A stretch of 64,000 bases of DNA from Squalus acanthias (Eukaryota). The stretch covers positions 11,594,001 to 11,658,000 of the forward strand of contig CM059432.1 in assembly GCA_030390025.1 (NCBI GenBank), given 5' to 3'. Of the stretch, positions 3,865 to 60,149 are shown piece by piece (the first letter of the stretch is position 1; each line of letters begins with the position of its first letter). The notes beneath the pieces were generated by a model. That model worked only from the letters and a program-made list of their open reading frames with translations, had not been told where the DNA came from and did not search any database. A program made the translations under genes and the position numbers.

Positions 3865-3891
3865 CTTAGCATGTCAGGTAGAGAGAATCAG

Positions 3892-3928
3892 AGTTAACGT
3901 TTCAGGTCAATGACCTTTCATCAGAACT
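3892..3928 (-). ncRNA. Minimal type I hammerhead ribozyme motif (PLE-associated)
   Basis: AGTT-CTGATGA-A-AGGTC-ATT-GACCT-GAAA-CGTT-AACT: intact core, stem I AGTT/AACT, stem II AGGTC/GACCT. Confidence 0.75.
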
Positions 3929-3967
3929 GCCAGCTCTCAAACCTGAGTGTATATATATGTGTATATA

Positions 3968-4292
3968 TGGCAGCTGTCTTTCATTCTGCCATCGCCATTT
4001 ACACTTCATCTCGAGTCATCTTTTATTTACTTGTCCCATTACCATCTCCTTTTGCCTCGCGCCATCATCCCTTTTGTCATTCAATCTCTCCTGCCTTCTG
4101 TCCTATCACAGACCTTCCCTTTTGTTCTTTCCTCCCCTCCCCCCTTTCCCTGTCCCTACACTTGTTTAAAAACCTGTTCCATCTCCAACTTTTTCCAGTT
4201 CTGACGAAGGGTCACCGACCTGAAACGTTAACTCTCTGTTTCTCTCTCTACAGATGCTGCCTGACCTGCTGAGTATTTCCAGTGTTTTCTGT
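3968..4292 (+). mobile_element. Penelope-like element 3' UTR/pLTR
   Basis: Pyrimidine-rich UTR, hammerhead motif and AGATGCTGCCTGACCTGCTGAGT end, homologous to 5055-5425. Confidence 0.8.
4197..4233 (+). ncRNA. Minimal type I hammerhead ribozyme motif
   Basis: AGTT-CTGACGA-A-GGGTC-ACC-GACCT-GAAA-CGTT-AACT. Confidence 0.75.
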
Positions 4293-4293
4293 T

Positions 4294-4344
4294 GATATAT
4301 ATATATATATATATATTTATGTGTATGTGTTATATATATTTATG

Positions 4345-4420: not shown

Positions 4421-4946
4421 TTAATAAGAAACTTCAATACTCCGTGCCTGTGTGGTGGTCTGCAGAATCGGGGAAGCTAATTTTGCATGAGTGCTTGATT
4501 GTTAGTGACGGATATTATCATGTCCCCTCTGAATTAAAGTGAAAATGAAAGATGGGAGTCGGGAAATGTTTGAACTCTGAAGAACCGCCTCTTCATTTCC
4601 GACTCCCCCCACCTCCACGCCCAAGGACATGGTAAAGCAAAAGTCCATTTTTAAAAATTTATCCTGGCTAGTAAGCAAGTAAGTTGGGTTTTATAAATGT
4701 TCCGATATGCTCAGATCGATGCTGGGTATTTACACCACCACCTTGATGGGGTTTGTGGAACTGGCTGCTGGGTATCGGGTTACCTCGTCCGAACTGCAGG
4801 TGTCGTTTAAAAGCCGTATCACTGCCATCCAGGCAAGTCCCCGCCAAAAAAATATTCTGTGAGTATGACTATGTCAGGCTGCTGCTTGACCAGCCTATGG
4901 GACAGCTCTCCCAACCTTGGCACCAGTCCCCAGATGATAGTGAGGA

Positions 4947-5426
4947 TAATTTCAGATCATAACCCCGCCCCCTATCATATATATATATATATTTTTTTTT
5001 AATTTTATTTTTTTTATCCACACTTTTGTTTGGCCTTTTTTTCTTCCCTCCCACATGGCAGCTGTCCTTCATTCTGCCAGCGCAATTCACACTTCATCTA
5101 GAGCCATCCTTTGTTCCTTAACCTGTCCCATTTCCACCTCCTCTTGCCGTGAATATCTCTTCATGTCTCTTTATCTCTCCTGCTTTCTGTCCTATCACTG
5201 ACCGATCTTCCCTTTTGTTCTTTCATCCCCTCCCCCTCTTTCCCAGCCCTAAACTTGCTTTAAAATTTATTTCATTTCCTGCTATTTCCCAGTTCTGATG
5301 AAAGGTCTTCGACCTGAAACGTTAACTCTGTTTCTCTCTCCACGGATGCTGCCTGGCCTGCTGAGTTTTTCCCAGCGTTTTCTGTTGTTATTTCGGATTT
5401 CCAGCATCCGCAGTATTTTGCTATCG
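4947..5426 (+). mobile_element. 5'-truncated Penelope-like element
   Basis: Starts with the ORF end AATTTCAGATCATAA (NFRS*, as at 15837); 12-bp TSD TGATAGTGAGGA at 4935-4946 and 5427-5438. Confidence 0.88.
5291..5327 (+). ncRNA. Minimal type I hammerhead ribozyme motif
   Basis: AGTT-CTGATGA-A-AGGTC-TTC-GACCT-GAAA-CGTT-AACT. Confidence 0.75.
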
Positions 5427-6000
5427 TGATAGTGAGGAGGACTTTGCAGGGTCGACCTGGGCTGGCTGGGCCTTCGGCGTGTCCTGATTCGATGCCCAGG
5501 TCACAGTCGAGTGGTCCGTCCGGTTCGAATCTTGTTTTCCTTTCTAGCCGTTTAGTGCAACTGAGTGGCTCGCGAGGTCACGTCAGAGGGCAGTTCAGAG
5601 TCAACCACGTTGGCACGGGTCTGGAGTTACATATAGGCCAGACCGAGTAAGGACGAGCAGGTTTCCATCCCCAGTGGACATTAGTGAACCAGTTGTTTTT
5701 TTTTACAACAACCCGACAGCTTCAGCAGTCACTTTTACTGATACCAGCTTTTTATTTCAGGATGTCTTTTAACACTGAATTCAAGTTGTCAAACTGGCCT
5801 GGTGGGATTTGAACTCGTTCTCTGGTTATATTAGTCCAGGGCCATGAATTACTAGTCCAGCAACGTAACCACTAGGCTAGAGCACCGTTCCCATTCCTGA
5901 TCGCTGTCCACTGACTCCTGCTGGAATGCTTGTATGTGTGGACATTAATTGAGGACAGGATTGGGTTTGGTTTTGTTGCTCTTCATTGAAAATATCCTAT

Positions 6001-6682: not shown

Positions 6683-7455
6683 ACATTCTCATCCTTGTGT
6701 TCAAATCCCTCCCTGCCCTTGTCCCTCCCCATCTCCGTAACCTCCTCCAGCCCTACAACCCCCTGAGATCTCTGCACTCCTCCAATTCTGGCCTCTTGCA
6801 CATTGCCCCACCATTGGCGGCCGTGGCGTCAGCTGTCTATAAGGGGTACGGTAGCATAGTGGTTATGTTACTGGACTAGTAATCCAGAGGCCTGGACTAA
6901 TGATCGAGACGGGAGTTCAAATCCCACCACGGCAGCTGGGGAATTTAAATTCAGTTAATTGAATAAATCTGGAATAAAAAGCTAGGATCAGTAATGGTGA
7001 CCATGAAACTACCAGATTGTCGTAAAAACTCTTCTGGTTCACTAATGTCCTTTAGGGAAGGAAATCTGCCACCCTTACCCGGTCTGGCCTATATGTGACT
7101 CCAGACCCACAGCAATGTGGTTGACTCTTAACTGCCCTCTGAAATGGCCCAGCAAGCCACTCAGTTGTATTCAAGAAGGCGGCTCACCACCACCTTCTCG
7201 AGGGCAATTAGGGATGGGCAATAAATGCTGGCCTTGCCAGCGAGGTCCACATCCCGTGAATGAATTAAAAAAAAACCTAAGCTTGGGAATTCTCTCCCTA
7301 AACCTCTCAACCTCTCCTCCTTTAAGATGCTGCTTAAAACCTACCCCTTTGACCAAGCTTTTGGTCACCTGTCCCAACATCTCTTTATGTGGCTCGGTGT
7401 CAAACTTTGTCTGATAATCGCTCCTGTGAAGCGCCTTGGGACGTTTTACTACTAC
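6683..7455 (+). mobile_element. L2 LINE 3' end, interrupted by the SINE at 6845-7275
   Basis: ILILVFKSL..L.NLLQPYNP.RSL.SS, then WNSLP-like..LKTY.FDQAF and a TGTGAAGCGCCTTGGGACGTTTTACTAC tail. Confidence 0.75.
6845..7275 (+). mobile_element. Complete tRNA-derived SINE (MetaSINE-like body) sharing both ends with the family-B LINE
   Basis: A box TAGCATAGTGG 6852-6862 and B box GTTCAAATCC 6915-6924; body GTCCTTTAGGGAAGGAAATCTGCC..GTGACTCCAGACCCACAGCAATGTGG; tail AAGAAGGCGGCTCACCACCACCTTCTC..GGCAATAAATGCTGGCC matches the LINE end at 11960-12060. Confidence 0.88.
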
Positions 7456-8761: not shown

Positions 8762-9172
8762 TAAAGAAAGAAAGACTTGCATTTCTATAGCGCCTTTCGC
8801 GACTACCGGACGTCCCAAACTGCTTTACAGCCAATGAAGTACTTTTTTGGCGTGTAGTCACTGTTGTAATGTAGGAAACGCGGCAGCCAAATGCGCACAG
8901 CAAGGTCCCACAAACAGCAATGTGATCATGATCAGATGATCTGTTTTTAGTGATGTTGGTTGGGGGATAAATATTGGCCAGGACACCGGGGCTAACTCCC
9001 CTGCTCTTGTTCGAAAATGTGCCGTGGGATCTTTTATATCCGCCTGAGAGAGCAGACGGGACCTCGGTTTAACGTCTCATCCGAAAGACGGCACCTCCGA
9101 CAGTGCAGCACTCCCTCCGCGCTGCACTGGGAGTGTCAGCCGAGAATTTTGTGCGTTCAAGTCCCTGGAGTG
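8762..9172 (-). mobile_element. SacSINE1-like DeuSINE
   Basis: Reverse complement of the 35048-35425 type sequence. Confidence 0.85.
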
Positions 9173-9711
9173 GAACCAGAATAGAAAACTAGAATCAGAT
9201 TACTCAAATATGTTCTTTGAGCTTATGCCATGATTGTGGATGAGCATTCTATGCAGTTAATACATTTGTATAATTCTGCTTTATGATCTTCAGAACTAGT
9301 GAACTAAAACGAGGCCTTTGTGTATTATTTGGAGCGTGTAATGTGGACAATGCACAGTACTTGGTGTTCAAAAATGTCAGTGGGCAAAGAACGTAACAAG
9401 GTTTAACCATTTGAGGTCTGTGATATTATAATCCCGTGTAACTGGGTTAGGAGAAGCTGAGCTGTGATCCAACACGAACCTGGCTAATTCCAATCCAGAA
9501 TATTCAGCATCAGACTTTGCACTTGCGATTTAAACACGTCCCGTGAGTTTTTCTGGATAAACTTTAGATGAAAGGTCCTGTTGAAGCAGCTGAAACATGG
9601 GCTAGAGGATTTTCTGTAACATCGAAACCTTAACGCAGTGCAATTTCATCACCTGACAAGGAAGGGATGAGTACATAGTCCTGGCTGTCAGTTCATGCAA
9701 CACTAACTCCA

Positions 9712-11227: not shown

Positions 11228-12061
11228 TGGACGACGTTCAGGCTTGGGCTGATAAGTAGCAGATAACATTTGCGCCGCAGAAGTGCCAGGCAATGACTAT
11301 CTCCAACAAGCGAGAGTCTAACCACCTCCCCTTGACATTCAACGGCGTTACCATCGCCAAATCCCCCACCATGCGGGGACTGCTGCATCCTGGGGGGTCA
11401 CCATTAACCACAAACTTAACTGGACCAGCCACATAAATACCGTGGCAACAAGAGCAGGTCAGAGGCTGGGTATTCTGCGGCGAGTGTCTCACCTCCTGAC
11501 TCCCCAAAGCCTTTCCACCATCTACAAGGCACAAGTCAGGAGTGTGATGGAATATTCTCCACTTGCCTGGATGAGTGCAGCTCCAACAACACTCAAGAAG
11601 CTCGACACCATCCAGGACAAAGCAGCCCATTTGATTGGCACCCCATCCACCACCTTAAACATTTACTCCCTCCACCACCGGCGTACCGTGGCTGCAGTGT
11701 GTACCATCTACAAGATGCACTGCAGCAACTCGCCAAGGCTTCTTCGGCAGCACCTCCGAACCCCACGACCTCTTCCACCTAGAAGGACAAGGGCAGCAGG
11801 TGCATGGGAACACCACCACCTCCAAGTTCCCCTCCAAGTCACACACCATCCTGACTTAGAAGTATATCGTCGATCCTTCATTGTCACTGGGTCAAAATCC
11901 TGAACTCCCTCCCTAACAGCACTGTGGGAGTACCTTCACCACACGGACTGCAGCGGTTTAAGAAGGCGGCTCACCACCACCTTCTCAAGGACAATTAGGG
12001 ATGGGCAATAAATGCTGGCCTTGCCAGTGACGCCCACATCCCATAAACGAATTTAAAAAAA
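11228..12061 (+). mobile_element. Family-B LINE 3' fragment with complete 3' end
   Basis: LSTIYKAQVRSVMEYSPLAWMSAAPTTLKKLDTIQDKAA; ends FKKAAHHHLLK, short UTR and A-rich tail. Confidence 0.9.
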
Positions 12062-14844: not shown

Positions 14845-15115
14845 AATGGGGCAGGTGACCAAAAGCTTGGTCAAAGAGGTAGGTTTGAAGGAGCGACTTA
14901 AAGGAGGAGAGAGAGCTAGAGAGGCGGAGAGGTTTAGGGAGGGAATTCCAGAGCTTGGGGCCTGAAGGCATGGCCACCAATGGGGGGGCAATGGAAATCA
15001 GGGTGCAGCAAGAGGCCAGAATTGGAGGAGCGCAGAGATCCGGGAGGGTTGTAGGGCCCGGGGGAGGTCTCCGAGATAAGGAGGGGAGCGGCTAGGGAGG
15101 GACTTGAACACAAGG
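14845..15115 (-). mobile_element. L2 LINE 3' fragment
   Basis: Reverse complement of the 6690-7380 L2 sequence. Confidence 0.75.
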
Positions 15116-15529
15116 AAATGGCAGTAACCCATCGGAATGGCGGTCTCTGCTGTTTTCCACTGGGCTCTGCCGATCTCGCAGTGGGAGTCCCCGTGGAACC
15201 GCCAGTAAATTCAGAGCCATTGTGCCCAGTTGCATCTTGCTTACAAACTTTGTACTTTGTAGTGTTAATAATAAAAAATGAGAAATACGAAATCCACTTT
15301 GAAACATTCCTCTCGCCCAGCCTGACATGGTGATGGTTTTGGATCTTCTATAGAGGGAGCTTGGCTGAAAACGTCTGCAACACTGCCCAGCGGAAAAAAA
15401 CAAACTCTGCCGCTTTTATATTTAACCTGTACAAGTAAAATCTCCGTCTAACCTTTTAACCGGTTGCCTGAATTCAGAACCTCTTTGTCCTGGGGAGAAT
15501 CTGTCTCACAACGAGCTGAAACTGTTATG

Positions 15530-16270
15530 ACAGCAAAATGCTGCGGATGCTTGAAATCTGAAATAACAACAGAAAATGCTGGCAGCACTCAGCAGGCCAG
15601 GCAGCATCCTCGGAGAGAGAAACAGAGTTAACGTTTCAGGTCTGTGACCCTTCATCAGAACTGGAAAAGGTTAGAGATTTTAAGCAGGTGCAGAGACAGG
15701 GAAAGCAGGGGGTGGGGCGGAGGGGAGGAAGGAATTGAAGGAATAGTCTGTGCTAGGGTAGGAGGCAGGCGTGGTTAAATGTTGCAAATGGGGATGGCAG
15801 AGTCATCAACAGTCGCCTGAAAAATGGGGGCAGTGGTTATGATCTGAAATTGTTGAACTCAATGTTGAGTCCAGAAGGCTGTAAAATGCCTAATCGAAAG
15901 ATGAGGCGCTGTTCCTCGAGCTTACGCTGAGCTTCATTGGAACAGTGTAAGAGGCCGAGGACAGAAAGGTCGGAGTGGGAGTGGAGCGGAGAATTAAAGT
16001 GACAGGCGACCGGAAGCTTGGGGTCACCCTTGCGGACTGAACGGGGGTGTTCCGCAAAGCGGTCACCCAATCTGCGTTTGGTCTCCCCAATGTAGAGGAG
16101 ACCGCATCATGAGCAGCGAATACAGTATACTAAATTGCAAGAAGTACAAGTAAATCGCTGTTTCACCTGGAAGGGGTGTTTGGGGCCCTGGACAGTGGGA
16201 AGAGGGGAGGTAAAAGGGCAGGTGTTGCATCTCCTGCGCTTGCACGGGAAGGTGCCGTGGGAAGGGGAAG
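15530..16270 (-). mobile_element. Penelope-like element 3' part encoding a GIY-YIG endonuclease (decayed)
   Basis: NLVYCIRCS*CGLLYIGETKRRLGDRFAEH..PVACHFNSPLHS..LEEQRLIFRLG.LQPSGLN, followed by the UTR and hammerhead motif. Confidence 0.92.
15626..15662 (-). ncRNA. Minimal type I hammerhead ribozyme motif
   Basis: AGTT-CTGATGA-A-GGGTC-ACA-GACCT-GAAA-CGTT-AACT. Confidence 0.75.
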
Positions 16271-17446: not shown

Positions 17447-17770
17447 GGGCAACACGGTGGCATAGTGGTTAGCACTGTTACCTCACAGCGCCAGGGACCC
17501 GGGTTCGAATCCGGCCTCGGGTGACTGTCTGTGTGGAGTTTGCACATTCTCCCCGTGTCTGCGTGGGTTTCCTCCGGGTGCTCCGGTTTCCTCCCACAGT
17601 CCAAAGATGTGCGGGTTAGGTTGATTTGGCTATGATAAATTGACCCTTAGTGTTAGGGGGATTAAATACGTGGGGTTACAGGGATAGGGTGGGATATGTG
17701 TCGGTGCAGGCTCGATGGGCCGAAATGGCCTCTATCTGCACTGTGGGGATTCTGTGATTCTGTGATTCTA
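17447..17770 (+). mobile_element. HE1-type V-SINE, full length
   Basis: A box TGGCATAGTGG and B box GTTCGAATCC; V domain GTGTGGAGTTTGCACATTCTCCCCGTGTCTGCGTGGGTTTCCTCCGGGTGCTCCGGTTTCCTCCCACA; CR1-type (ATTCTGTG)n tail. Confidence 0.92.
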
Positions 17771-17961: not shown

Positions 17962-18495
17962 GATTTTATTCGTTTTATGGGATGTGGGCATCACTGGCAA
18001 GGCCAGCATTTATTGCCCATCCCTAATTGCCCTTGAGAAGGTGGTGGTGAGCCGCCTTCTTGAACCGCTGCAGTCCGTGTGGTGAAGGTGCTCCCACAGT
18101 GCTGTTAGGGAGGGAGTTCCAGGATTTTGACCCAGCGACGATGAAGGATCGGTGATATACTTCCAAGTCAGGATGGTGTGTGACTTGGATGGGAACTTGG
18201 AGGTGGCGGTGTTCCCATGTGCCTGCTGCCCTTGTCCTTCTAGGTGGAAGAGGTCGCGGGTTTGGGAGGTGCTGCCGAAGAAGCCTTGGCGAGTTGCTGC
18301 AGTGCATCTTGTAGATGGTACACACTGCAGCCACGGTATGCCGGTGGTGGAGGGAGTGAATGTTTAAGGTGGTGGATGGGGTGCCAATCAAGCGGGCTGC
18401 TTTGACCTGGATGGTGTCGAGCTTCTTGAGTGTTGTTAGAGCTGCACTCACCCAGGCAAGTGGAGAGTATTCCATCACACTCCTTACTTGTACCT
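17962..18495 (-). mobile_element. Family-B LINE 3' fragment
   Basis: ORF 18023-18478 MEYSPLAW..SWNSLPNS..FKKAAHHHLLKGN*, plus 3' UTR. Confidence 0.9.
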
Positions 18496-19210
18496 GGGAG
18501 AAGCACTACATTACGTTCATACAGCATGCACTGGCACGGTGGTAAGAAGGAGTATACGTGTGCGACACACATGGATTGCCAATGAAATTCTGTTCACACT
18601 AAAGCTGGGCGTGTAGACATTGTTTTTGGAATGGCCTGGAAGCTGCTTCACGGGGCTACATAAATGGGAGCTTTTGTGAGCTTTGCGCACAGAGAAAGTA
18701 AGGCTCTGTTTGTAAGGCAAAGTTGTGCATCAGGAAGCACAAAGCCACCATCCTTGAGATGCTAGCTGGCTTGTGTTGCAGGATGTCCCCCCCCGGGGGC
18801 CAGGTATGATCCAGATACCTGCAACATGCCAATGACGTGATCGCATATAACTCTGGTGACTACAGAGATTTCATTTAAAAACATAACATAAGAAATAGGA
18901 GCAGGAGTAGGCCATTCGGCCCCTCGAGCCTGCTCCGCCATTCAATGAGATCATGGCTGATCTTCGACCTCAACCCCGCTTTCCCGCCCGATCTCCATAT
19001 CAGGACATCCCAAAGCGCTTTACAGCCAATTAAGTACTTTTTGAAGAGTAGTCACTGTTGTAATGTAGGAAATGCAGCAGCCAATTTGCGCACAGCAAGG
19101 CCCCACAAACAGCAATGAGATAAATGACCAGATAATCTGTTTTTTTAGTGATGTAGGTTGAGGGGTAAATATTGGCCAGGACATGTTTATAAAAGAGCAG
19201 ATTTGCTAGT

Positions 19211-21065: not shown

Positions 21066-21513
21066 AAAAGAAAGGCAGACTTGCATTTCTGTCGCGCCTT
21101 TCATTACCGCCGGACATCCCAAAGCGCTTTACAACCAGTGAAGTACTTTTTGAAGTGTAGTCACTGTTGTAATGTAGGAAATGCGGCAGCCAATTAGCGC
21201 ACAGCAAGCTCCCACAAACAGCAATGCGATAATGACCAGATCATCTGTTTTAGTGATGTTGATTGAGGGATAAATATTGGCCAGGACACCGGGGATAACT
21301 CCCCTGCCATAGGATCATTTGCGTTCACCTGAGAGAGCAGACGGGGCCCTCGGTTTAACGTCTCCTACGAAAGACGGCCCCTCCGACAGTGCAGCTCTCC
21401 CTCAGCACTGCACTGGGAGTGTCAGCCTAGATTTCTGTGCTCAAGTCCCTGGAGTGGGGACTTGAACCCACAACCTTCAGATTCAGAGGCGAGGGTGCTA
21501 CCAACTGAGCCAT
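21066..21513 (-). mobile_element. SacSINE1-like DeuSINE, near full length, nested in a CR1 fragment (~20920-22012, +)
   Basis: tRNA head TGGCTCAGTTGG..GGGTTCAAGTCC, Deu body and tail; GGAAGAA flanks both sides. Confidence 0.88.
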
Positions 21514-24695: not shown

Positions 24696-25156
24696 AGAAC
24701 AGCAGAGCTCATGTGCAGCAACATTAAACAGCCCTGTCGTTACAATGCTGAATGCTCGCAAGCTTAGAAATGAGCTTCACATATTTTGAGTTTCGTCAAT
24801 GAACAAAAATATTATTAAAGCATTATCAGAAATCAGCTGTATGCAGCATGACTCACCACTGAAATAATCAGTTTAATGCTGGAGGAAGCATTTCTTCAAA
24901 GCCAATCGGATTCAGTCACGCAGCCGCGTGTTTCTAAAGACATAGCCACCCACTCCAGAGATGAAAGTGTTGTTGTCAGCTGCACGTAACAGGAGCCAGA
25001 CTTCAGTGAGTGAGTCATTGACGCTGAATTATTGGACCATTGGAATTCTGATCGAACACAGAATTCAAAGATAGACGACCCCAAATGAAGAGGAAGTGAG
25101 ACGCAGATTATGCTTAAAAATAAAAGAAAATGGGTGATTTTTTTTTGTGCGTTCAG

Positions 25157-25563
25157 GTACGGTACCATAGTGGTTATGTCACTGGGCTCGTAATCCAGAG
25201 GCCTGGACTAATGATCCAGAGACGTGAGTTCAAATCCCACCACAGCAGCTGCTGGGGGAATTTAAATTTAGTTAATTAAATAAATCTGGAATTTAAAGCT
25301 AGTATCAGTAACGTTAACCATGAAACTACCAGATTGTCATTAAAAACCTATTGTCCTATGAGGAGAGATGGCCTAATATGTGACTCCAGACCCACAGCAA
25401 TGTGGTTGACTCTTAAACTGCCCCTCTGAAACGGCCCAAGCAAGCCACTCAGTTGTACAAGAAGGCAGCTCACCACCATCTTCTCGAGGGCAATTAGGGA
25501 TGGGCAATAAATGCTGTCCTTGCCAGCGACGCCCACATCCCAAGAACGAATAAAAAAAAAAAT
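25157..25563 (+). mobile_element. tRNA-derived SINE of the family-B type (copy 2)
   Basis: Same head, body and tail as 6845-7275; junction CTCAGTTGTA|CAAGAAGGCAGCTCACC. Confidence 0.88.
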
Positions 25564-28486: not shown

Positions 28487-28806
28487 ACACAGAATCCCCA
28501 TCGAGCCTGCACCGACACATATCCCACCCTATCCCCGTAACCCCACGTATTTAATTCCCCCTAACATATCCCTTCCTATCCTATCCCCGTAACCCCACAT
28601 ATTTAATCCCCCCCTAACACTAAGGGTCAATTTATCATAGCCAAATCAACCTAACCCGCACATTTTTGGACTGTGGGAGGAAACCGGAGCACCCGGAGGA
28701 AACCCACGCAGACACGGGGAGAATGTGCAAACTCCACACAGACAGTCACCCGGGGCCGGATTCGAACCCGGGTCCCTGGCGCTGTGAGGCACCAGTGCTA
28801 ACCACT
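28487..28806 (-). mobile_element. HE1-type V-SINE
   Basis: Reverse complement of 17460-17765, with a short internal tandem duplication. Confidence 0.9.
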
Positions 28807-28869
28807 GATGCGGCCGGACCTGCTGTGATTTCCAGCAAAAAAAGTTTTTTGTTTTCCATACAGACACCA

Positions 28870-29178
28870 GCATCTGCCTCATTGTCTTTGATGTAATGTT
28901 TTGCTGACTGACCTGTTTGGACACCATCCACACCTTTGATTGCCGTGATTATCTCTCTGCCGAGGTGTGGTAAAGGGCAGTTGGAAAGATTAACTGTAAT
29001 CATCTGGCTGTGTTCTCTGACTATATATGCTGTGACTATATGCATCTCTTCACTTCACCTGACGAAGGAGCAGCGCTCCGAAAGCTTGTGATTTCAAATA
29101 AACCTGTTGGACTGTAACCTGGTGTTGTGCGACTTCTCACATTTGTCCACCCCAGTCCAACACCGGCATCTCCACATC
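28870..29178 (+). mobile_element. Penelope-like element pLTR (second PLE family)
   Basis: Nearly identical (inverted) to 54795-55045 and related to the GIY-YIG-bearing copy at 40759-41279. Confidence 0.85.
29055..29091 (+). ncRNA. Minimal type I hammerhead ribozyme motif (second family)
   Basis: TCAC-CTGACGA-A-GGAGC-AGC-GCTCC-GAAA-GCTT-GTGA. Confidence 0.75.
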
Positions 29179-29307
29179 TAAGCAGGAGACATACAGAGAA
29201 ATATTGTCCTGCTTTTCCTCTGGGTAGAGACGTAACCTTCATCGATCCTGACTCTCTCTACAAATTGTTAAGGAGAGCGCAAGATCTTTATGGGCCTCTA
29301 GTCATAA

Positions 29308-29771
29308 AGAAAGAAAGACTTGCATTTATATAGTGCCTTTCACGACCTCAAGACATTCCAAAGCGCTTTACAGCCAATTAAGTACTTTTGGGGTGCAGTC
29401 ACTGTTGTAATGTAGGAAACACGGCAGCCAATTTGCGCACAGCAAGCTCCCGCAAACAACAACATGATAATGGCCAGATAATCTGTTTTAGTGATGCTGA
29501 TTGAGGGATAAATATTGGCCACAACACCGAGGATAACTGCTCATCTTCGAAATAGTCCCGGGGGATCTTTTATGCCCACCTGAGAAGCACACGGGGACCT
29601 CGGTTTAACGTCTCATCCGAATGACGGCACCGCCGACAGTGCAGCGCTCCCTCAGCACTGCACTGGGACTGTCAGCCTAGCTTTATGCGCTCAAGTCTCT
29701 GGAGTGGGACTCGAACCCACAACCTTCCGACTCAGAGGCGAGGGTGCTACCCACTGAGCCACAACTGACAC
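29308..29771 (-). mobile_element. SacSINE1-like DeuSINE, full length
   Basis: Head GTCAGTTGTGGCTCAGTGGG..GGGTTCGAGTCC through the (TTTC)n tail. Confidence 0.88.
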
Positions 29772-30853
29772 TACAAGGGGAGTGGAGAATGCGGGCGACC
29801 ATCCTGCTACCTCTCACAACAATCCCACTACCATGCACACTGTCCTTGATGATTCATTATATCCTGATAAGTTATTGTGAAAAAGACCCCCAGAAATGAG
29901 GCAGTTCCTACAAAACACCAGACGGTCAATCGGTTTACCATTAAGCAAGTAACTAATCATCTTCGACCTATTGTATGCCAGCTGTGGCTCAGTGGTAGCA
30001 CTCTCACCTCTGAGTCAGAAGGTTGTGGGTTCAAAATTTGTGCACTAAATTTAGGCTGACAATCCAGTGCAGTACTGAGGGAGTGCTGTACTGTCAGAGG
30101 TGCCATCTTTCGAATGAGATGTTAAACTGAGACCCCGTCTGGCCTCTCGGATGGATGTAAAAGATCCCATGGCACTATTTCGATTGATGATTTTGAATAT
30201 TGTTGATTTTCAGTATATATTTATCCTGCATGCTCAGCGTTCTTCCTTTAAAGATGTTCCACTTGTCCTCTACTGATATTATACTACTTCAGGCAGCAGC
30301 CCAGTTATATTGCCTTTCGTATAGCTCACGCAAATGTAAAGTACCAAGCCAAAGGCCGGAATTTTCCTTACCTTGGCAGGTCCGGTGCGGCCGGTGTCCG
30401 TGGCGGGTCGCGACCCCGCTGCTGGCTCCATCCCACTGTAGAAAATGAACTTGCCTTAATGGGGTCTATTAAGCCCGCCTAGCACGTTACCCGACCCAAT
30501 TAGATGGAGCGGGCCTGCTGACGTCATTCATGACGCGTTTTAAGCTGGGATCCTTAAAGGCCACATTAAATTTTAATTTTAATCTAACATAATGGGTGTT
30601 GAATCTTTACTGTGCAATAATATAAAAAAGTTATATATGAGTGACAAAGAAATATTTAAATAATATTATCATTAAGTAATATGACTCCATCTACAAATAC
30701 GATCAAGAACATAATTAAAACTACATTAATTGGGAAGTTATTGGTGCTTTAGTCACAAATCTATAGACTTTTGTATCGGTAACTAGGACAAATAAAAGAT
30801 GTGTGTGTATAGGTAACACATAAAATTAAGCAGATTTTAAATGTAATTGTAAA

Positions 30854-32389: not shown

Positions 32390-33541
32390 CAAGGGGTGTC
32401 TTGCAGCTGAAGATGGTTGGGCCTAGGACGCTGCCCTGAGGAACTCTTGCAGCGATGTCCTGGGGCTGATTCCAGGTATGACTTCAGCCACTGGAGAGTT
32501 TCCCCCCCCGATTCCCATTGACTTCTGTTTTACTAGGGCTCCTTGGTGCCACACTCGGTCAAATGCTGCCTTGATGTCAAGGGCAGTCACTCTCACCTCA
32601 CCTCTGGAATTCAGCTCTTTTGTCCATGTTTGGACCAAGGCTGTAATGAGGTCTGGAGCCGAGTGGTCCTGGTGGACCCCAAACTGAGCATCGGTGAACA
32701 GGTTATTGGTGAGTAAGTGCCGCTTGATAGCACTGTCGATGACACCTTCCATCACTTTGCTGATGATTGAGAGTAGGCTTATATGACGGTAATTGGCCGG
32801 ATTGGATTTGTCCTGCTTTTTGTGGACAGGACATACCTGGGTGATTTTCCATATTATCGGGTAGATGCCAGTGTGGTACCTGTGCTGGAACAGCTTGGCT
32901 AGAGGTGCGGCTAGTTCTGGAGCACAAGTCTTCAGCACGACAGCCGGGATGTTGTCGGGACCCACAGCCTTTGCTGTATCCAGTGCGCTCAGCCATTTCT
33001 TGATATCAAGTGGAGAGAATCGAATTGGCTGGAGACTGTCTTCTGTGATGTTGGAGACCTCAGGAGGAGGCCAAGAAGGATCATCCACTCGGCCCTTCTG
33101 GCTGAAGGTATTGCTGGGCTCCACCATCATTGAGGAGGGGAATGTTAATGGAACCTCCTCCATCCGTTAGTTGTTTAATTGTCCACCACTATTTACAATT
33201 GGATGTGGCAGGATTGCGGAGCTTTGACCTGATTGCTTTGCTCTGTCTCTAGAATGCTGCTTCCGCTGTTTAGCATGCATGTAGTCCTGTGTTCTGGCTT
33301 CACCAGTTTGGCACCTGATTTTTAGGTACGCCTGGTGCTGCTCCTGGCATGCTCTTCTACACCCCTCACTGAACCAGGGTTGGCCATCTGGCTTGATGGT
33401 GATAGGGGAGTGAGGGATATGCCGGGCCATGAGGTTACAGATTGTGGTGGAATACAATTCTGCTGCTGCTGATGGTCCACAGCGCCTCGTGGATACCCAG
33501 TTTTGAGCTGCTAGATCTGTTCTAAATCTATCCCATTTAGC
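32390..33541 (-). mobile_element. Family-B LINE internal (linker + RT) fragment
   Basis: ORF 32423-33163: LKTCAPELAAPLAKLF..ANYRHISLLSIISKVMEG..ALDIKAAFDRVWHQG. Confidence 0.92.
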
Positions 33542-34984: not shown

Positions 34985-35570
34985 AAAAATATTTATTCTT
35001 GGGATGTGGGTGTCGCTGGCAAAGCTGGCATTTATTGCCCGTCCAGTTGTCAGCTGTGGCTCAGTTGGTAGCACCCTCGCCTCTGAGTCAGAAGTTTGTG
35101 GGTTCAAGTGCTGCACTGTCGGAGGTGCCGTCTTTCGGATGAGACGTTAAACCGAGGCCCCGTCTGCTCTCTCAGGTGGACGTAAAAGATCCCACAGCAC
35201 TATTTCGAAGAAGAGCAGGGGAGTTATCCCCGGTGTCCTGGGGCCAATATTTATCCCTCAATCAACATAACAAAAACAGTTTATCTGGTCATTATCACAT
35301 TGCTGTTTGTGGGATCTTGCTGTGCGCAAATTGGCTGCCGCGTTTCCCACATTACAACAGTGACTACACTCCAAAAAAGTACTTCATTGTCGTGAAAGGC
35401 ACTATATAAATGCAAGTCTTTCTTTATCCCGAGTTGCCCATTTGATACAACTGGGCGGCTAACTAGGCCACTTTGGAGGGCAGTTAGGAGTCAATCACGT
35501 CGTGTGGAACTGCAATCACGTATAGGCCAGACTGGCTAAGGATGGCAGGTTTCCTTCCCTAAAAGACATG
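34985..35570 (-). mobile_element. Family-B type SINE (copy 3, degraded), split by a SacSINE1-like insertion (35048-35425, +)
   Basis: Tail at 34985-35042 and body at ~35427-35570; the insert has a tRNA head and Deu body. Confidence 0.75.
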
Positions 35571-35864: not shown

Positions 35865-35975
35865 CTAAAATAAAAGCAGAAAACGCTCAGCAGGTCAGGC
35901 AGCATCTGTGGAGAGAGAAACAAGAGTTGACGTTTTAGTTCGATGACCTTTCATCGGAACTGGAAGATGTTAGAG
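35865..35975 (-). mobile_element. PLE end with a degenerate hammerhead motif (35925-35961)
   Basis: AGTT-CCGATGA-A-AGGTC-ATC-GAACT-AAAA-CGTC-AACT; core mutated. Confidence 0.7.
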
Positions 35976-35980
35976 ATGGA

Positions 35981-38544: not shown

Positions 38545-38984
38545 TATCCTGGCAGCAGTCATGATGCCTTCATTCTGCAGCGGCCCGCTGTACCTTCAGT
38601 CTGCTGACCACCTGGCTCATGACTCAGCTGCACAACCCACGCACACGTGGGCGGCATGCGTACAATGAGAGCCATGCTGCCACACGGAATCTGATAGAGC
38701 AGACCATTGGCATCCTTAAACAACGCTTCCGCTGCCTGGACCGCTCTGGTGGAGCCCTGCAGTACTCGCCAGAGCGCGTCTCAAGATTTGTCGTGGTCTG
38801 CTGCATGCTGCACAACCTCGCCATCATGAGGGCACAGCCCTTGCCACCAGGTATATGGCGAAGAGCTGAGGAGGAGCAGGAGGAAGCGGAAGAGGAGGAG
38901 GAGGAGGAAGGGAGGAGGCAAACCAGACAGCCCCTTTCTGCCCGGGCTGTCTGTGATCGACTCATCCGACGGCGGCACCAGTGA
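38545..38984 (+). pseudogene. Harbinger DDE transposase, C-terminal remnant
   Basis: YPGSSHDAFILQ, a deletion, then WLMT..YNESHAATRNLIEQTIGILKQRFRCLDRSGGALQYSPERV..CCMLHNLA; N-terminal half missing. Confidence 0.9.
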
Positions 38985-40758
38985 ACACAACCCCAATTCC
39001 CCATCAGTCTCACACCTTACCTTCCCTCTGTTACTGACCATCACAGCGTCCTCTTGGCCACAATGCGACAATAAAAGCCACCACAAAATAGACATTCCAA
39101 ACCAACTTTATGAATCAGACCATTACAATATTTCATTCAAAGGTCAACTAATCACCCTTGTGCATTCCTTGAGTGCCCGTCTTCTGTGTGCCTTTGCCTG
39201 TCCGAGTGCTCCTACGCAGTGCTACCCCAGTGCCTGCCGCATGGCTGGTGGAAGGCTGCCGGCTTTCAGTGGGGGGAGACCACAGATGGCCTTGCAGGAC
39301 GACCTCGAGCAGCTCTGGGCCAAGTAGGCCCGGCTTTGGTCTGCACCATCTCGGCATGGGCGGCAGCAGTCCGGGCTGGCTGGCTGGCTGACAGGCGACA
39401 GCAAGGGCACTGGCGGAGTGGCAGTGATGGGAGGACGAAAGCTGTCATCCTGAGAGAGGACACCAGGTTGGCCCTTCACGGAGCCACTGCCACTCCCCTG
39501 GGCGGCGCCTTAGCAATCCTATTAATCTGTCAGAGGACAGATTGCTGGACTGCTGTGACCCCCCCTGCAAGGCCCTTTCAACACTGGTAATCGCAGCCAT
39601 GATGGCAGCAGTCTGAGCTTCCATTGCAGCTCTCAGACGTTGGGTGGTTTCTGCTTGTGCTGCAATGGAAGTTGAGGCACCTGCCCTCAAACGCTGCATG
39701 ATGGTTGGGCCCACAAGTGCGCTAATGGATCCGGCCACCCCTCCCACGCTGGAATGGATGGGCTCCAAGCTCTGCGCAAAGCCCCGTGCCAAGTTGGTGC
39801 CAGACTCCTCCATGCTCCTTCTCATTGCATTCAGGCTTTCTGGCAGGCCTGCTAATGCACCAAGCATTTCGTTGTGCAGACCCATCCAGCTTTGTTCTGT
39901 AGGCCGCCCCATCGAAGTCCTCATCCGAGTCCTGTGCAGCAGAAACCCGTGTGCAGCCTCGCCCTCCAGGGAACTGGCATCTGCGCTACCCTTTCCCCCC
40001 TGCCCTGGCTGCAGCCCACTCATGTCCGGTGTCTCACCACGTGTAGATCCTGCCTCTAAGCTACCCTCCAGACTCTGCGCAGCGCCAGTATCTGAGCTGG
40101 TGGCTGCAAGTGTCAGATCAAGTGTCGGTGTTTCTCCTTCATCAGCGCTCTCCTCGTCCCTCTCCCTCTCCCTCTTCCACTACTGCCTGGATTTCTTGGG
40201 TCTCTGAAATGAGAAAGGCACAAGAGTAGGGTTGCGGTGGGAGGGGTGGGGGGGCGGGCGGGGGTGGTGGGGAAGCAAGAGGTGCATGCTGACACCATCT
40301 GCAGCTTGTACGTCACAAGAGATTGTGGGATGAGGGGGAAGTGGGATGTGAGAAGGAGGATTAGGTACGAGCATACTGTAATGTTCAATGTTTTTAGCGC
40401 CGCTGCTGGCCACGGCCTCTGTCACAGCCACTCCAGTTATGCCGAGCACCATCTCCTGGAGCGGGGTCAGGATACGGAGGCGCGCCTGTCCCCCGTGGTT
40501 GGCTGCAGCTGCCTCCAGTTGTGCGCCCCCTCGCCCTGCAAGAGAGAGGGAAGTGTGTCAGTGAGTGCGCTTCACGGTGTGTGGCTGGTGTGGCCGTCAT
40601 GGTTGAATAGCTGGCAGTGTGTTCAAGATGTGGATGTGAGGCTTGCAGCAGTGGTAAGTGTGTGAGGGTGAGATGGAGCATCTGAATCGTTGAAGGTGGC
40701 AGGGCAGGTTGAGAAAGCGGTTAAAAAAGCATACGGGATCCTGGGCTTCGTGAATAGA

Positions 40759-41279
40759 AATGAGAAGTCGCACAACACCAGGTTATAGTCCAACAGATTT
40801 ATTTAATTTTACAAGCTTTCGGAGCTATCGCTCCTTCGTCAGGTAAGTTAGCAATGAGAGAATCTCCCAGAATTCACAATTTAAACCCAGACAAAATCTA
40901 TTCACATTATTCGCTACAACAAAGAGCACAGCCAAGACAATGAGATGTGTCCCAGGGGGTCCAGCGTGTCAAACCACCTGCTGGCTGCATATCCTGTCAA
41001 TTTGTGTTCTTGTGTTTTTAAAAAAAAAAAAAACCAAAAAAAACACCTGGGAAGACCGGCCATGATGTCAAGTCACGTTCTGTATCGTGACATGAACCCG
41101 ATATCGCGATTGAGGCCATCCTCATGAGTGCGGAACTTGGCTATCAGTTTCTGCTCTATGATTTTGCGCTGTCGTGTATCTCGAAGGCCGCCTTGGAGAA
41201 CGCTTACCCGCAGATCCGAGGCTGAATGCCCCTGGCTGCTGAAGTGTTCCCCGACTGGGAGGCAACCCTCCTGCCTGGC
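40759..41279 (-). mobile_element. 5'-truncated Penelope-like element nested in CR1
   Basis: GIY-YIG C-terminus LPVGEHFSSQGHSASDLRVSVLQGG..EQKLIAKFRTHEDGLNRD; 10-bp TSD CGTGAATAGA (40749-40758, 41280-41289). Confidence 0.9.
40809..40846 (-). ncRNA. Minimal type I hammerhead ribozyme motif (second family, variant)
   Basis: TTAC-CTGACGA-A-GGAGC-GATA-GCTCC-GAAA-GCTT-GTAA. Confidence 0.75.
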
Positions 41280-44942: not shown

Positions 44943-47848
44943 CATCCCTAATTGCCCCTTGAGAAGGTGGTGGTGAGCCGCCGCCTTGAACCGCTGCAGT
45001 CGTGTGGTGAAGGTACTCCCACAGCGCTGTTAGGGAGGGAGTTCCAGGAATTTGACCCAGCGGCGATGAAGGATCGGCCGATATACTTCTAAGTCAGGAT
45101 GGTGCGTGTCTTGGAGGGGTTCTTGGAGGTGGTGGTGTTCCCATGCGCCGGCTGCCCTTGTCCTTCTAGGTGGAAGAGGTCGCGGGTTTGGGAGGTGCTG
45201 CTGAAGAAGCCTTGGCTGCACCTTGTAGATGGTACACACTGCAGCCACAGTATGCCGGTGGTGGAGGGAGTCATAGAATCATAGAAGATAGGAGCAGAGT
45301 AGGCCATTCGGCCCCTCTAGCCTGCTCCGCCATTCAATGCGATCATGGCTGATCATCCAAATTCAGTACCCTGTCCCTGCTTTCTCCCCATATCCCTTGA
45401 TCCCTTTAGCCTTAAGAAATATATCCAACTCCTTCTTGAATCTATTTAATTAATTGAATGTTTAAGGTGGTGGATGGGGTGCCAGTCAAGCGGGCTGCTT
45501 TGTCCTGGATGGTGTCAAGCTTCTTGAGTGTTGTTGGAGCTGCACTCATCCAGGCAAGTGGAGAGTATTCCATCACACTCCTTACTTGTGCCTTGTAGAT
45601 GGTGGAAAGGCTTTGGGGAGTCAGGAGGTGAGACACTCGCAGCAGAATACCTTGCCTCTGACCTGCTCTTGTTGCCGCAGTATTTATGTGGCTGGTCCAG
45701 TTAAGTTTCTGGTTAATGGTGACCCCCAGGATGTTGATAGTGGGGGATTCGGCGATGGTAATGCCATTGAATGTCAAGGGGAGGTGGTTAGACTCTCGCT
45801 TGTTGGAGATAGTCATTGCCTGGCACTTCTGTGGCGCGAATGTTACCTGCCACTTATCAGCCCAAGCCTGAATGTCGTCCAGGTCTTGTTGCATGCGGGC
45901 ATGGACTGCTTCATTATCTGTGGAGTTGCGAATGGCGCTGAACACTGTGCAGTCATCAGCGAACATCCCCATTTCTGACCTTATGTTAGAGGGAAGTTCA
46001 TTGATGAAGCAGCTGAAGATGGTTGGGCCTAGGTCACTGCCTTGAGGAACTCCTGCAACGATGTCCTGGGGCTGTGATGATTGACCTTCAACCACCAACC
46101 ATCTCCTTTGTGCTCGGTATGACTCCAGCCAGTGGAGTGTTTTCCCCCTGATTCCCATTGACTTAAGTTTTACGAGGACTCCTTGATGCCAGACTCGGTC
46201 AAATGCTGCCTTGATGTCAAGGGCAGTCACTCTCACCTCACCTCTGGAATTCAGCTCCTTTGTCCATGTTTGGACCAAGGCTGTAATGAGGTCGGGAGAC
46301 CGAGTGGTCTTGTCGGAACCCAAACTGGGCATCAGTGAGCAGGTGCCGCTTGATAGCACTGTCGATGACACCTTCCGTCACTTTGCTGATGATTGAGAGT
46401 AGACTGATGGGGCGGTAATTGGCTGGGTTGGATTTGTCCTGCTTTTTATGGACAGGACATACCTGGGCAGTTTTCCACATTGTCGGATAGATGCCAGTGT
46501 TGTAGCTGTACTGGAACAGCTTGGCTAGAGGCGCGGCTAGTTCTGGAGCACAAGTCTTCAGCACGATAGCCGGGATGTTGTCGGGGCTCATAGCCTTTGC
46601 TGTATCCAGTGCGCTCAGCCGTTTCTTGATATCACGTGGAGTGAATCGAATTGGCTGAAGAATGGCTTCTGTGATGGTGGGGACCTCGGGAGTAGGCCGA
46701 TATGGATCATCCACTCAGCACTTCTGGCTGAGATTGGTTGCAAACACTTCAGCCTTGTCTTTTGCACTCACGTGCTGGGCTCCACCATCATTGAGGATGG
46801 GGATATTCTTGAAGCCTCCTCCTCCCGTTGGATGTTTAATAGTCCACCACCATTCACAACTGGATGTGGCAGGACTGCAGAGCTTTGATCTGATCTGTTG
46901 ATTGTGGGATCGCTTAGCCCTGTCTATAGCATGCTGCTTCCGCTTTTTAGCATGCATGTAGTCCTGTGTTGCAGCTTCCCCAGGTTGGCACCTTATTTTT
47001 AGGTACGCCTGGTGCTGCTCCTGGCATGCTCTTCTACACTCGTTGTTGAACCAGGGTTGGTCGTAATGGTAGAGTGAGGGATATGCCGGGCCATGAGGTT
47101 ACAGATTGTGGTGGAATACAATTCTGCTGCTGATGACCCACAGCGCCTCATGGATGCCCAGTTTTGAGCTGCTAGATCTGTTCTGAATCTATCCCATTTA
47201 GCACGGTGGTAGTGCCACACAACACGATAGAGGGTGTTCTCAGTGTGAAGACGGGACTTCGTCTCTGCAATGACTGTGGGTGGTCACTGCTACCATGCAC
47301 AGGTAGATTGGTCAGGACGAGGTCAAGTAGGTTTTTCCCTCTTGTTGGTTCTCTCACCACCTGTCGCAGGCCCAGACTGGCAGTTATGTCCTTCAGGACT
47401 CGGCCAGCTCGTGATGCTACCGAGCTGCTCTTGGTGATGGACATTGACGTCCTCTACCCAGAGTACATTCTGTGCCCTTGCTACTCTCGGTGCTTCTTCC
47501 AAGTGGTGTTCAACATGGAGGAGCACTGATTCATCAGCTGAGGGAGGGCGGGAGGTGGTAATCAGCAGGCGGTTTCCTTGCCCATGCTTGACCTGAAGCC
47601 ATGAGACTTCATGGGGTCCAGAGTCAATGTTGAGGACTCCCAGGGCCACTCCTTCCCGACTGTATACCACTGTGCCACCACCCTGGTGGGTCTGTCTTGC
47701 CGGTGGGACTAGCTTTTTATTCCAGATTTATTTAATTAACTGAATTTAAATTCCCAAGCTGCCGTGGTGGGATTTGAACTCACGCCTCTGGATCATTAGT
47801 CCAGGTCTCTGGATTACTAGCCCAGTGACATTACCACTACGCTACCGT
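44943..47848 (-). mobile_element. Family-B LINE, near full length: tRNA-derived head (47710-47848) joined to a frameshifted EN-RT ORF; nested CR1 end at ~45271-45452
   Basis: A box TAGCGTAGTGG 47834-47844 and B box GTTCAAATCC 47770-47779; EN motifs SHRQDRPT..VVYSREG..RPPSAD..DVNVHH, NLLDLVLTN, SDH; RT motifs NYRPISLL, LDIKAAFDRV, GVPQGS.LGP, MFADD. Confidence 0.92.
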
Positions 47849-47859
47849 TCCCGTATAAT

Positions 47860-52060: not shown

Positions 52061-52189
52061 TGACCCTCTTTACTGTTGGCCTTTGTTTCTGCTCCCTACT
52101 AGTTTTGCTGACTACTTTTCTAACTTGCACTTCCAGCTTTGTTTCTCTTCGCTCTGGGCCCACACTTAGGTTCCCAGCCCCCTGACAAA

Positions 52190-54669: not shown

Positions 54670-54794
54670 TAGTATCTTTAATCAATAAAGCTACCCCTCC
54701 TCCTCTTCAAGTTTCCCTATTCTTTCTCGAGACCTTTATAACCTGGAATATTTAACTCCCAGTCATGACCAGCTTGCAGCCATGTCTCAGTAAA

Positions 54795-60120: not shown

Positions 60121-60149
60121 TTCTCGCACGTTAAAAAGTATTTAGCACT

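What the first reader, a model, noticed from the sequence alone, without database searches (positions are those of the whole stretch)
6845..7275. The SINE looks like an internal-deletion derivative of the family-B LINE (shares both ends)
Seen: the SINE follows the LINE 5' end up to GCCACTCAGTTG, then jumps to the last ORF codons (FKKAAHHHLL) and 3' UTR seen at 11960-12060 and 17962-18065. The copy at 25157-25563 breaks at almost the same point; the degraded copy at ~34985-35570 has the same parts. From memory, the body resembles the MetaSINE 'Meta' domain reported from fishes and invertebrates; this assignment is not verified. Inference: either the SINE arose by deletion from the LINE, giving a concrete origin and function (5' UTR plus start codon) for an enigmatic conserved SINE domain, or the LINE captured a pre-existing SINE as its promoter.
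Basis: partly seen in the sequence, partly recalled or inferred. Interest (0 to 1): 0.7.

Follow-up and report, generated by a model that had tools for sequence, protein, structure and literature searches.

The report
Shark SINE cut from tRNA-headed LINE
A short jumping repeat in this shark-like genome is its partner protein-coding retrotransposon with the middle removed, and that partner itself begins with a tRNA-type promoter and avoids runs of T, so it may be copied by RNA polymerase III; the suggested link to the 'Meta' SINE domain is wrong.

Summary
Largely confirmed, with corrections. The 432-nt SINE (6844-7275) is a tRNA-like head, a ~240-nt body and the last ~100 nt of an ORF1-less EN-RT LINE. 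Two window copies carry the head on the LINE (5885-4853; 47852-44943). Heads (91-93%) and tails (90-93%) match the young LINE copies equally well. Three of 13 scorable proteins, all three whale-shark gene models, run from body-coded peptides into the endonuclease. The best reading is therefore a deletion derivative of a LINE that already had the head; the head was captured earlier.

Not supported: the Meta domain, the 'start codon' in the body, and 'same parts' for the 35-kb copy, which has no head and another junction.

Added here: the LINE sense strand has no TTTT (0 of 8 pieces; present in 12 of 12 CR1 control pieces and 41 of 41 relatives) and avoids T-runs at silent sites (OR 0.11). G-runs are also avoided (OR 0.32). 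Pol III transcription of a coding LINE is possible (about 0.35) but untested.

The scan noted this family before, elsewhere in this genome. Eight literature searches found no description; Repbase and Dfam could not be checked.

The parts
6844..6930 (+). tRNA-derived head of the SINE. A box 6852-6862, B box 6913-6924, anticodon-like arm 6871-6887 followed by a second imperfect copy of it (~6892-6908)
   Evidence: Rfam tRNA 21.5 bits, E 0.28, below the gathering score; ARAGORN finds nothing; A box in 4 of 4 heads by pattern, B box read by eye in the same 4; sharp 5' boundary in 3 DNA runs
6931..7169 (+). Body, equal to the 5' leader of the LINE; not a Meta domain
   Evidence: Collinear with the LINE-attached copy 5800-5558; body-coded peptides precede the endonuclease in whale-shark models P0038, P0040, P0048
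7170..7275 (+). LINE-derived tail: last ORF codons (FKKAAHHHLL...), 3' UTR and A-tail
   Evidence: 90-93% to 11959-12052 and 17968-18062; loose ends before 7170 are LINE ORF sequence in 4 of 4 runs
25155..25562 (+). Second SINE copy; junction within 1-2 nt of the first; two small deletions in the body
   Evidence: head 92%, tail 90.5% to the first copy
35426..35570 (-). Older 5'-truncated copy: 3' half of the body and the first tail letters, with a different junction and no head
   Evidence: body 82% to the 6844 copy
34990..35047 (-). Rest of that copy's tail, beyond a Deu-type SINE inserted at 35048-35425
   Evidence: 81-86% to the young tails
5428..5885 (-). LINE 5' end, older subfamily: head, body, ~110-nt linker and first endonuclease codons (PCKVLLT); no ORF1
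   Evidence: head 74-80% to the young heads
4853..4945 (-). Continuation of that endonuclease N-terminus beyond a 482-nt insertion
   Evidence: 12-nt duplication around the insertion; joint 4936-5433 in 3 DNA runs; 79-83% identity to whale-shark models P0038 and P0040
47709..47852 (-). Head plus ~50 nt of body joined directly to mid-endonuclease of a young LINE copy (internal deletion or template switch)
   Evidence: 91-93% to the SINE heads; sequence
45457..47708 (-). Decayed EN-RT ORF of that LINE copy
   Evidence: Pfam RVT_1 E 6.6e-28; tblastn with P0003 covers its residues 62-821
44943..45271 (-). 3' part of the same copy, beyond an inserted fragment of the other CR1 family; it ends in the tail
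11228..12061 (+). 5'-truncated young LINE copy with a complete 3' end
17964..18501 (-). 5'-truncated young LINE copy with a complete 3' end
32403..33541 (-). Internal piece of an older LINE subfamily (81% to the 47-kb copy); also free of TTTT

Best explanation
The SINE is a bipartite deletion derivative of an ORF1-less, single-ORF EN-RT LINE (CR1 group) whose own 5' end is a tRNA-derived head plus a ~350-nt leader. Shown: the shared ends, LINE-attached heads in two window copies, body-to-endonuclease adjacency in whale-shark gene models, and several junctions. Inferred: during reverse transcription (template jump) or by later DNA deletion, the region between the end of the body and the last codons is lost. 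The product keeps the internal A/B-box promoter, so it is at once a Pol III SINE, and it keeps the 3' end that the LINE protein recognises, so it is mobilised in trans. This happened more than once. The head was captured earlier by the LINE lineage; whether as a bare tRNA copy or as an older SINE is open.
For: Equal divergence at both ends: heads of the two SINEs 93% and 91% to the LINE head at 47852, tails 90-93% to LINE tails at 12 kb and 18 kb, while the older LINE head at 5885 is only 74-80% to all three. The tail begins inside the ORF. Of 22 proteins found with the endonuclease N-terminus profile, 13 had at least 8 residues before it. Three of those 13 (P0038, P0040, P0048; all whale shark) match sense-strand body translations with 0 of 200 shuffles as good; 0 of 13 match the antisense; a fourth (P0044) is borderline, 12 of 200. 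Ten of the 15 joints displayed link the body (6950-7169) to tail positions 7175-7209, 8 of them in all three DNA runs; one contig has 39 extra letters there that look by eye like LINE linker and ORF pieces. The 35-kb copy has a different junction. The 6844 copy interrupts another repeat cleanly, so it moved as a unit.
Against: No full-length LINE with head, intact body, linker and complete ORF lies in the window; the two headed copies are truncated or deleted. One search showed 15 of 3931 joints and 24 of 8496 loose ends, and none shown is a young body running into a linker. The alternative joints have low depth (about 10-330 against summed depths near a million) and could be secondary deletions in SINE copies. 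Whale-shark gene models are predictions on dead copies and may be spliced. No target-site duplication of 6 nt or more was found at the 6844 copy, and only an A-rich 8-mer away from the ends of the 25155 copy. Equal identity at both ends also fits repeated recombination between a long-lived SINE and the LINE.
Confidence: 0.75

Rival explanations
1. The SINE came first and persists as its own lineage. The LINE captured the whole SINE head and body as its promoter, and the SINE keeps swapping in the tail of the current LINE (module exchange).
For: The head is tRNA-derived, so it was captured at some time. None of 80 related LINE loci matches head or body by blastn, and none of 32 with long ORFs has both an A-box and a B-box pattern upstream. 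Tail exchange is well documented for SINEs (PMC4824008; PMC5499810).
Against: Heads track LINE subfamilies: the young SINE heads are 91-93% to the young LINE head but 74-80% to the old one. No copy with this body and an unrelated tail was seen in the window or in the displayed rows. The relatives are only 24-45% identical in protein and many contigs may lack the 5' end, so they do not date the capture.
Confidence: 0.15
2. The headed LINE copies are one-off template-switch chimeras (reverse transcriptase jumping from LINE RNA to abundant SINE RNA, like U6-L1 chimeras, recalled). The true LINE 5' end has no head, and the SINE is an ordinary tail-sharing SINE.
For: The 47-kb copy joins mid-body directly to mid-endonuclease, as such a chimera would. 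Summed depth over the body is about 7-20 times that over the endonuclease start (not a copy number).
Against: The 5.9-kb copy leaves the body exactly where the SINE junction lies and continues into a linker that also precedes the endonuclease in whale-shark model P0046. Body-coded peptides precede the endonuclease in a second species. T-run avoidance extends over the whole ORF in two subfamilies, which random chimeras do not predict.
Confidence: 0.08
3. The body is the MetaSINE Meta domain, so this LINE leader is the origin of that conserved domain.
For: MetaSINE heads are closest to tRNA-Thr (PMC4824008) and the loop here reads AGT at the anticodon position. Hagfish and bivalve MetaSINEs use CR1 or CR1-Zenon tails.
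Against: The printed Meta consensus and three hagfish Meta domains show no similarity to the body by eye. The Meta core 14-mer has 15 window matches at up to 3 mismatches, none in the five body-bearing copies. Six 10-mers from head, body and tail occur in neither paper's searchable supplements (one file not searched).
Confidence: 0.02

Closest known systems
Bipartite LINE-derived SINEs and non-autonomous LINEs (Bov-A/Bov-tA from Bov-B; CoeSINE4, SINE2_Gav, AfroSINE from RTE; SINE2-1_ACar from Vingi), Kojima 2018, PMC5786205 (parts 1-4 of 5 read)
   Same: The SINE body and tail come from the 5' and 3' ends of one partner LINE by internal deletion.
   Different: That survey found only RTE and Vingi in SINE bodies, and bipartite derivatives only from RTE, Ingi, Vingi and R2. 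In its model the tRNA head is added after the deletion and the LINE is taken to be Pol II. Here the partner is CR1-like and the head is already on the LINE, so one deletion gives a complete SINE.
RTE-1_DAn and relatives (one sentence in PMC5786205)
   Same: A LINE that contains a tRNA-like sequence.
   Different: RTE clade; the position and role of the sequence are not described in what I read, and search listed no other paper on it among the 20 shown.
MetaSINE superfamily (PMC4824008, parts 1-3 of 6 read; consensus from the PMC7245038 supplement)
   Same: tRNA head with a possible Thr anticodon; some members use CR1-type tails.
   Different: No Meta domain after the head.
Known shark SINEs: HE1 (V-SINE, partner HER1), SacSINE1 (Deu, L2 tail), CmiSINEs (CORE) (PMC5499810 parts 1-3 of 6; table passage of PMC3747384)
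   Same: tRNA-headed, LINE-tailed SINEs of cartilaginous fishes. A Deu-type family (matched by eye) and an HE1-like family (label recalled) occur in this window as separate repeats.
   Different: Different head, body and tail; those papers describe sharing with the LINE only at the 3' end.
CR1-Zenon-like LINEs (reported in whale shark, 10.1101/443036, passages)
   Same: Probably the same family type: single EN-RT ORF, 41-50% identical to ~935-aa EN-RT proteins, apart from the ORF1-bearing CR1 family in the RT tree.
   Different: The Zenon label is recalled and was not tested against labelled references; the passages read say nothing on 5' ends.

Membership tests
MetaSINE | 66-bp Meta domain directly after the tRNA head | tested here: not met
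   By-eye comparison with the consensus; core motif absent from all body copies
MetaSINE | Head closest to tRNA-Thr and 69-89% like other MetaSINE heads | tested here: inconclusive
   Loop reads AGT; unlike the hagfish EptSINE1 heads by eye; Fig. 2A of PMC4824008 is not held as text
tRNA-derived SINE (SINE2) | tRNA-like head with A and B boxes at the 5' end | tested here: met
   A box begins 8 nt after the 5' end; B box in 4 of 4 heads by eye; weak Rfam tRNA match, E 0.28
tRNA-derived SINE (SINE2) | Dispersed multi-copy unit with fixed ends and a LINE-derived tail | tested here: met
tRNA-derived SINE (SINE2) | Transcribed by Pol III | not testable with these tools
   Only contigs were available; the one RNA-labelled run is a guess and cannot show strand or start
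Bipartite LINE-derived SINE (Kojima 2018) | Body similar to the LINE 5' part and tail to the 3' end of the same LINE | tested here: met
Bipartite LINE-derived SINE (Kojima 2018) | Partner LINE of the RTE or Vingi clade | tested here: inconclusive
   The RT tree had no labelled RTE or Vingi references; CR1-group placement rests on similarity to the window's CR1 and on recall
Bipartite LINE-derived SINE (Kojima 2018) | RNA-derived head present on the SINE only, added after the deletion | tested here: not met
   The head is on 2 of 2 window LINE copies that extend 5' of mid-endonuclease
DeuSINE / SacSINE1 | Deu domain and L2-type tail | tested here: not met
   The Deu alignment matches another window family (35048-35425 and others) by eye; blastn finds no similarity between that family and this SINE
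UCON3-domain SINEs | UCON3 domain after the head | tested here: inconclusive
   By eye a 9-mer and a ~22-nt stretch resemble Fig. S2 but in reversed order; no alignment was run
CR1-Zenon LINE | Single EN-RT ORF, no ORF1 | tested here: met
   Only ~440 nt lie between the 5' end and the endonuclease; RVT_1 hit
CR1-Zenon LINE | RT groups with reference Zenon elements | not testable with these tools
   No labelled retroelement library is held
Pol III-transcribed coding LINE (hypothetical) | No TTTT on the sense strand | tested here: met
   0 runs in 8 of 8 pieces, 5774 nt; non-redundant 3179 nt: 0 against 3.9 expected, P 0.021
Pol III-transcribed coding LINE (hypothetical) | Avoidance specific to T-runs | tested here: inconclusive
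   Silent-site odds ratios T 0.11, G 0.32, C 0.48, A 0.73; the window's own SINEs tolerate TTT
Pol III-transcribed coding LINE (hypothetical) | Full-length uncapped transcript that depends on the A and B boxes | not testable with these tools
   needs experiment

The most novel reading that the evidence does not exclude
The partner LINE is an autonomous protein-coding retrotransposon transcribed end to end by RNA polymerase III from its tRNA-derived internal promoter. Its coding strand has been purged of T-runs to escape Pol III termination, and its uncapped RNA is translated without a conventional AUG, the body serving as the initiation element. Such a LINE sheds ready-made SINEs by a single internal deletion, which gives a direct, repeatable route for SINE birth.
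Probability: 0.35. Interest if true: 0.85.

Novelty: new variant of a known kind. Interest (0 to 1): 0.62.

Why it matters
The published model (PMC5786205) makes such SINEs in two steps, deletion of a Pol II LINE and then addition of an RNA head, and found this only for RTE and Vingi. Here the order is reversed and the partner is CR1-like: the head sits on the LINE and SINEs fall out by deletion, apparently more than once. That gives one SINE body a concrete identity, a LINE leader, though it is not one of the famous conserved domains. If the LINE is really read by Pol III, it would be a ~3-kb coding RNA from a polymerase thought to make only short non-coding RNA, and the head and body give a small, directly testable promoter and translation element.

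Tried and rejected
Meta domain: rejected.

Start codon in the body: the ATG at 7115 is in the endonuclease frame only by way of the old 5.9-kb copy. That copy has ACG there, a stop nine codons on, and no Met in that frame from the head to the endonuclease. Whale-shark models reach the endonuclease from body peptides in different frames, and P0040 and P0044 suggest a third frame with a stop just upstream. The start is unresolved.

Whole genome: none is held. Viral contigs: body motif 0 matches; protein profile 41 pattern hits, none confirmed, so horizontal transfer was not testable.

ARAGORN on 47 of the 80 related loci found 0 tRNAs, but it also misses the head in this window, so this control is weak.

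RNA folding: whole SINE z -1.22, LINE leader z -0.35; no unusual stability. Target-site duplications of 6 nt or more: none at the ends of either full SINE. My B-box pattern failed on all four heads; the box was read by eye.

TTTT absence alone is weak once the family's own codon table is used as the null (P(0) 0.21; TTT-or-longer runs P 0.013); it is 0.032 and 0.017 under two other nulls. Phe TTT/TTC 4/18 against 61/104 for other two-fold codons, p 0.098.

Depth sums were not used as copy numbers, and the RNA-labelled run was not used as evidence of expression. P0039 and P0041 were dropped as unrelated repeat proteins. The sequence look-up of earlier findings returned nothing.

Full report
Setting. 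The window is 47% GC and packed with retroelements. Named protein hits come from Scyliorhinus, Heptranchias, Heterodontus and Rhincodon, so it is taken as shark-like. No whole genome is held. Two LINE families dominate. Family A has an esterase-type ORF1 and an EN-RT ORF2 (49212-53123). Family B, the subject here, is 41-50% identical to ~935-aa EN-RT proteins and groups apart from family A in an RT tree of 37 rows, with moderate support.

The observation. The element at 6844-7275 has three parts. The first is a head with an A box 8 nt from the 5' end and a B box at 6913-6924, and a weak Rfam tRNA match (E 0.28). The second is a body to 7169. The third is a tail 90-93% identical to the family B 3' ends at 12 kb and 18 kb, starting in the last ORF codons. 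The copy at 25155 breaks within 1-2 nt of the same point. Contigs of three DNA runs from three coded organisms give a sharp 5' end at 6844 (873, 1162 and 1083 contigs with unrelated flanks) and LINE ORF sequence before 7170 (323, 600 and 724 contigs). The 6844 copy interrupts another repeat whose two halves match an uninterrupted copy at 14845-15120. The 35-kb copy is not the same: it has no head and no FKKAAHHHLL codons, it joins about 30 nt further into the tail, and a Deu-type SINE splits it.

Is the head really on the LINE? Both window copies that extend 5' of mid-endonuclease carry it. At 5885-4853 (minus strand) the order is head, body, ~110-nt linker and endonuclease N-terminus, split by a 482-nt insertion with a 12-nt duplication; the empty site is seen in 3 of 3 DNA runs. 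At 47852 the head and ~50 nt of body join mid-endonuclease, and the ORF continues to the tail. There is also evidence from another species. A profile of the endonuclease start found 22 proteins, and 13 had enough upstream sequence to score. Three of them (P0038, P0040, P0048; whale-shark models) begin with peptides coded by the sense strand of this body (0 of 200 shuffles as good), none matches the antisense, and P0046 matches the linker. There is no room for an ORF1. Against this: no complete copy is in the window, the models are predictions on dead copies, and displayed only 15 of 3931 joints and 24 of 8496 loose ends, none showing a young body running into a linker.

Direction. The SINE heads are 93% and 91% identical to the young LINE head and the tails 90-93% to the young LINE tails, while the old LINE head is 74-80% from all three. 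Both ends thus left the same young subfamily at about the same time. Junctions vary: 10 of the 15 displayed joints link the body to tail positions 7175-7209, 8 of them in all three DNA runs, and one contig carries 39 extra LINE-like letters. These are low-depth and may include secondary deletions. The head is tRNA-derived and was not found in 80 related LINE loci (blastn none; paired A/B boxes in 0 of 32 long-ORF loci), though these are distant (24-45% protein identity) and often incomplete. The simplest history is capture of a head by the LINE lineage, then repeated birth of SINEs by deletion (confidence 0.75).

Meta domain. PMC4824008 (parts 1-3 of 6) defines a 66-bp domain directly after a tRNA-Thr-like head. 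Its consensus, printed in the supplement of PMC7245038, does not resemble the body by eye, and its core 14-mer has 15 window matches at up to 3 mismatches, none in a body copy. Six 10-mers of the element are absent from the searchable supplements of both papers (one file not searched; the main alignment figure is not held as text). The assignment fails.

Start codon. The ATG at 7115 lines up with the endonuclease frame only through the old copy, which has ACG there, a stop nine codons on, and no Met in that frame. Whale-shark models enter the endonuclease from different body frames. No conventional start is shown.

T-runs. A tRNA-type promoter on a 3-kb coding element predicts absence of the Pol III terminator, four or more T (established knowledge). 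The sense strand has none in 8 of 8 family B pieces (5774 nt, partly overlapping, some short), while 12 of 12 family A pieces have at least one, as do 41 of 41 related ORFs of 600 aa or more and 68 of 68 of 300 aa or more. On a non-redundant 3179 nt, runs of three or more T number 5 against 19.7 expected (P 9e-5), and runs of four or more number 0 against 3.9 (P 0.021). At silent T/C sites outside CpG context, T is used in 1 of 31 places where it would make a run of three or more, against 87 of 280 elsewhere (OR 0.11, p 5e-4). Family A gives 0.65; the 41 relatives range from 0.28 to 3.5, median 1.22. Results against: G-runs (OR 0.32, p 6e-4) and C-runs (0.48) are also avoided in family B. With the family's own codon table the absence of TTTT is unremarkable (P 0.21). 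The window's other SINEs lack TTTT in 6 of 8 copies but carry 4-10 TTT runs each, so TTT avoidance is not a general Pol III trait. Avoidance of splice-site pyrimidine tracts, of U-rich repressive elements or of homopolymers in general are alternatives (inference). Pol III transcription of the LINE is put at 0.35.

Comparison with what is known. [quoted passage not shown] The shark SINEs described in PMC5499810 (parts 1-3 of 6) and listed in PMC3747384 (passages) are CORE, Deu and V types sharing only tails. Passages of PMC11481361, PMC4016481 and 10.1101/443036 mention CR1-Zenon or Zenon LINEs but no tRNA head on them. Eight searches listed no paper on a tRNA-headed shark LINE, but subscription journals, Repbase and Dfam are not covered. 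Nine notes of this scan report the same family in this genome, eight on other stretches and one on 4850-5888 of this window. They are AI notes and add no independent support; my reading was logged before I saw them.

Verdict. A real SINE that works like, and largely is, a bipartite LINE derivative, but of an undescribed arrangement: the head on the LINE and a CR1-like partner. New variant of a known kind, interest 0.62. The Meta link is rejected, and the Pol III LINE is the open, testable possibility.

Noticed in passing
window 6871-6908 (and 25183-25222, 47824-47786): The anticodon-like arm of the head is followed by an imperfect second copy of itself, which lengthens the A-to-B box distance to about 60 nt.
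   Followed up: no
window 7045-7095; 35569-35540: A short upstream reading frame in the body (MSFREGNLP...) is kept in the 6844 copy, the 35-kb copy and whale-shark model P0038; it may be only nucleotide conservation.
   Followed up: partly
window 7165-7200: In the 6844 copy the junction is in frame between the body frame ending SHSVV and the ORF end FKKAAHHHLL; the 25155 copy is not in frame, so this is probably chance.
   Followed up: partly
window 7065-7145: A 9-mer and a ~22-nt stretch of the body resemble the UCON3 domain shown by eye, but in reversed order.
   Followed up: no
window 8762-9176, 21067-21512, 29305-29776, 35048-35425, 57013-57445, 59778-60124 and others: An abundant Deu-type SINE family (SacSINE1-like), matched by eye to the Deu alignment.
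   Followed up: partly
window 17452-17725 and 28497-28815: A second tRNA-headed SINE with a CR1-type tail, 95% between copies; probably the HE1 V-SINE (label recalled).
   Followed up: no
window 4946-5427, 3880-4298, 15521-15798, 35868-35980: A repeat family that inserted into the LINE with a 12-nt duplication; Penelope-like by recall, not tested.
   Followed up: no
window 49212-53123 (minus): Near-intact CR1 of the other family: a 912-aa open EN-RT frame and an ORF1 with a GDSL-esterase/OSK-like domain.
   Followed up: partly
window 38565-40665: Open frames that look like the transposase and partner gene of a Harbinger-type DNA transposon (recalled, not tested).
   Followed up: no
window 61796-61884 and 62984-64000: A 27-nt tandem array running off the end of the window, with a short detached copy upstream.
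   Followed up: no
window 28889-29178, 54792-55123, 40761-40848: A young repeat (97% between copies) with an inverted terminal segment of about 43-75 nt.
   Followed up: no
P0031, P0033, P0037: Shark protein annotations (cystathionine beta-synthase-like, ATPase IM, CWC25 homolog) include pieces of this LINE, either annotation contamination or exonisation.
   Followed up: no
L067, L056: Two distant LINE ORFs also show silent-site T-run avoidance (OR 0.28 and 0.43) without a detected tRNA head.
   Followed up: no
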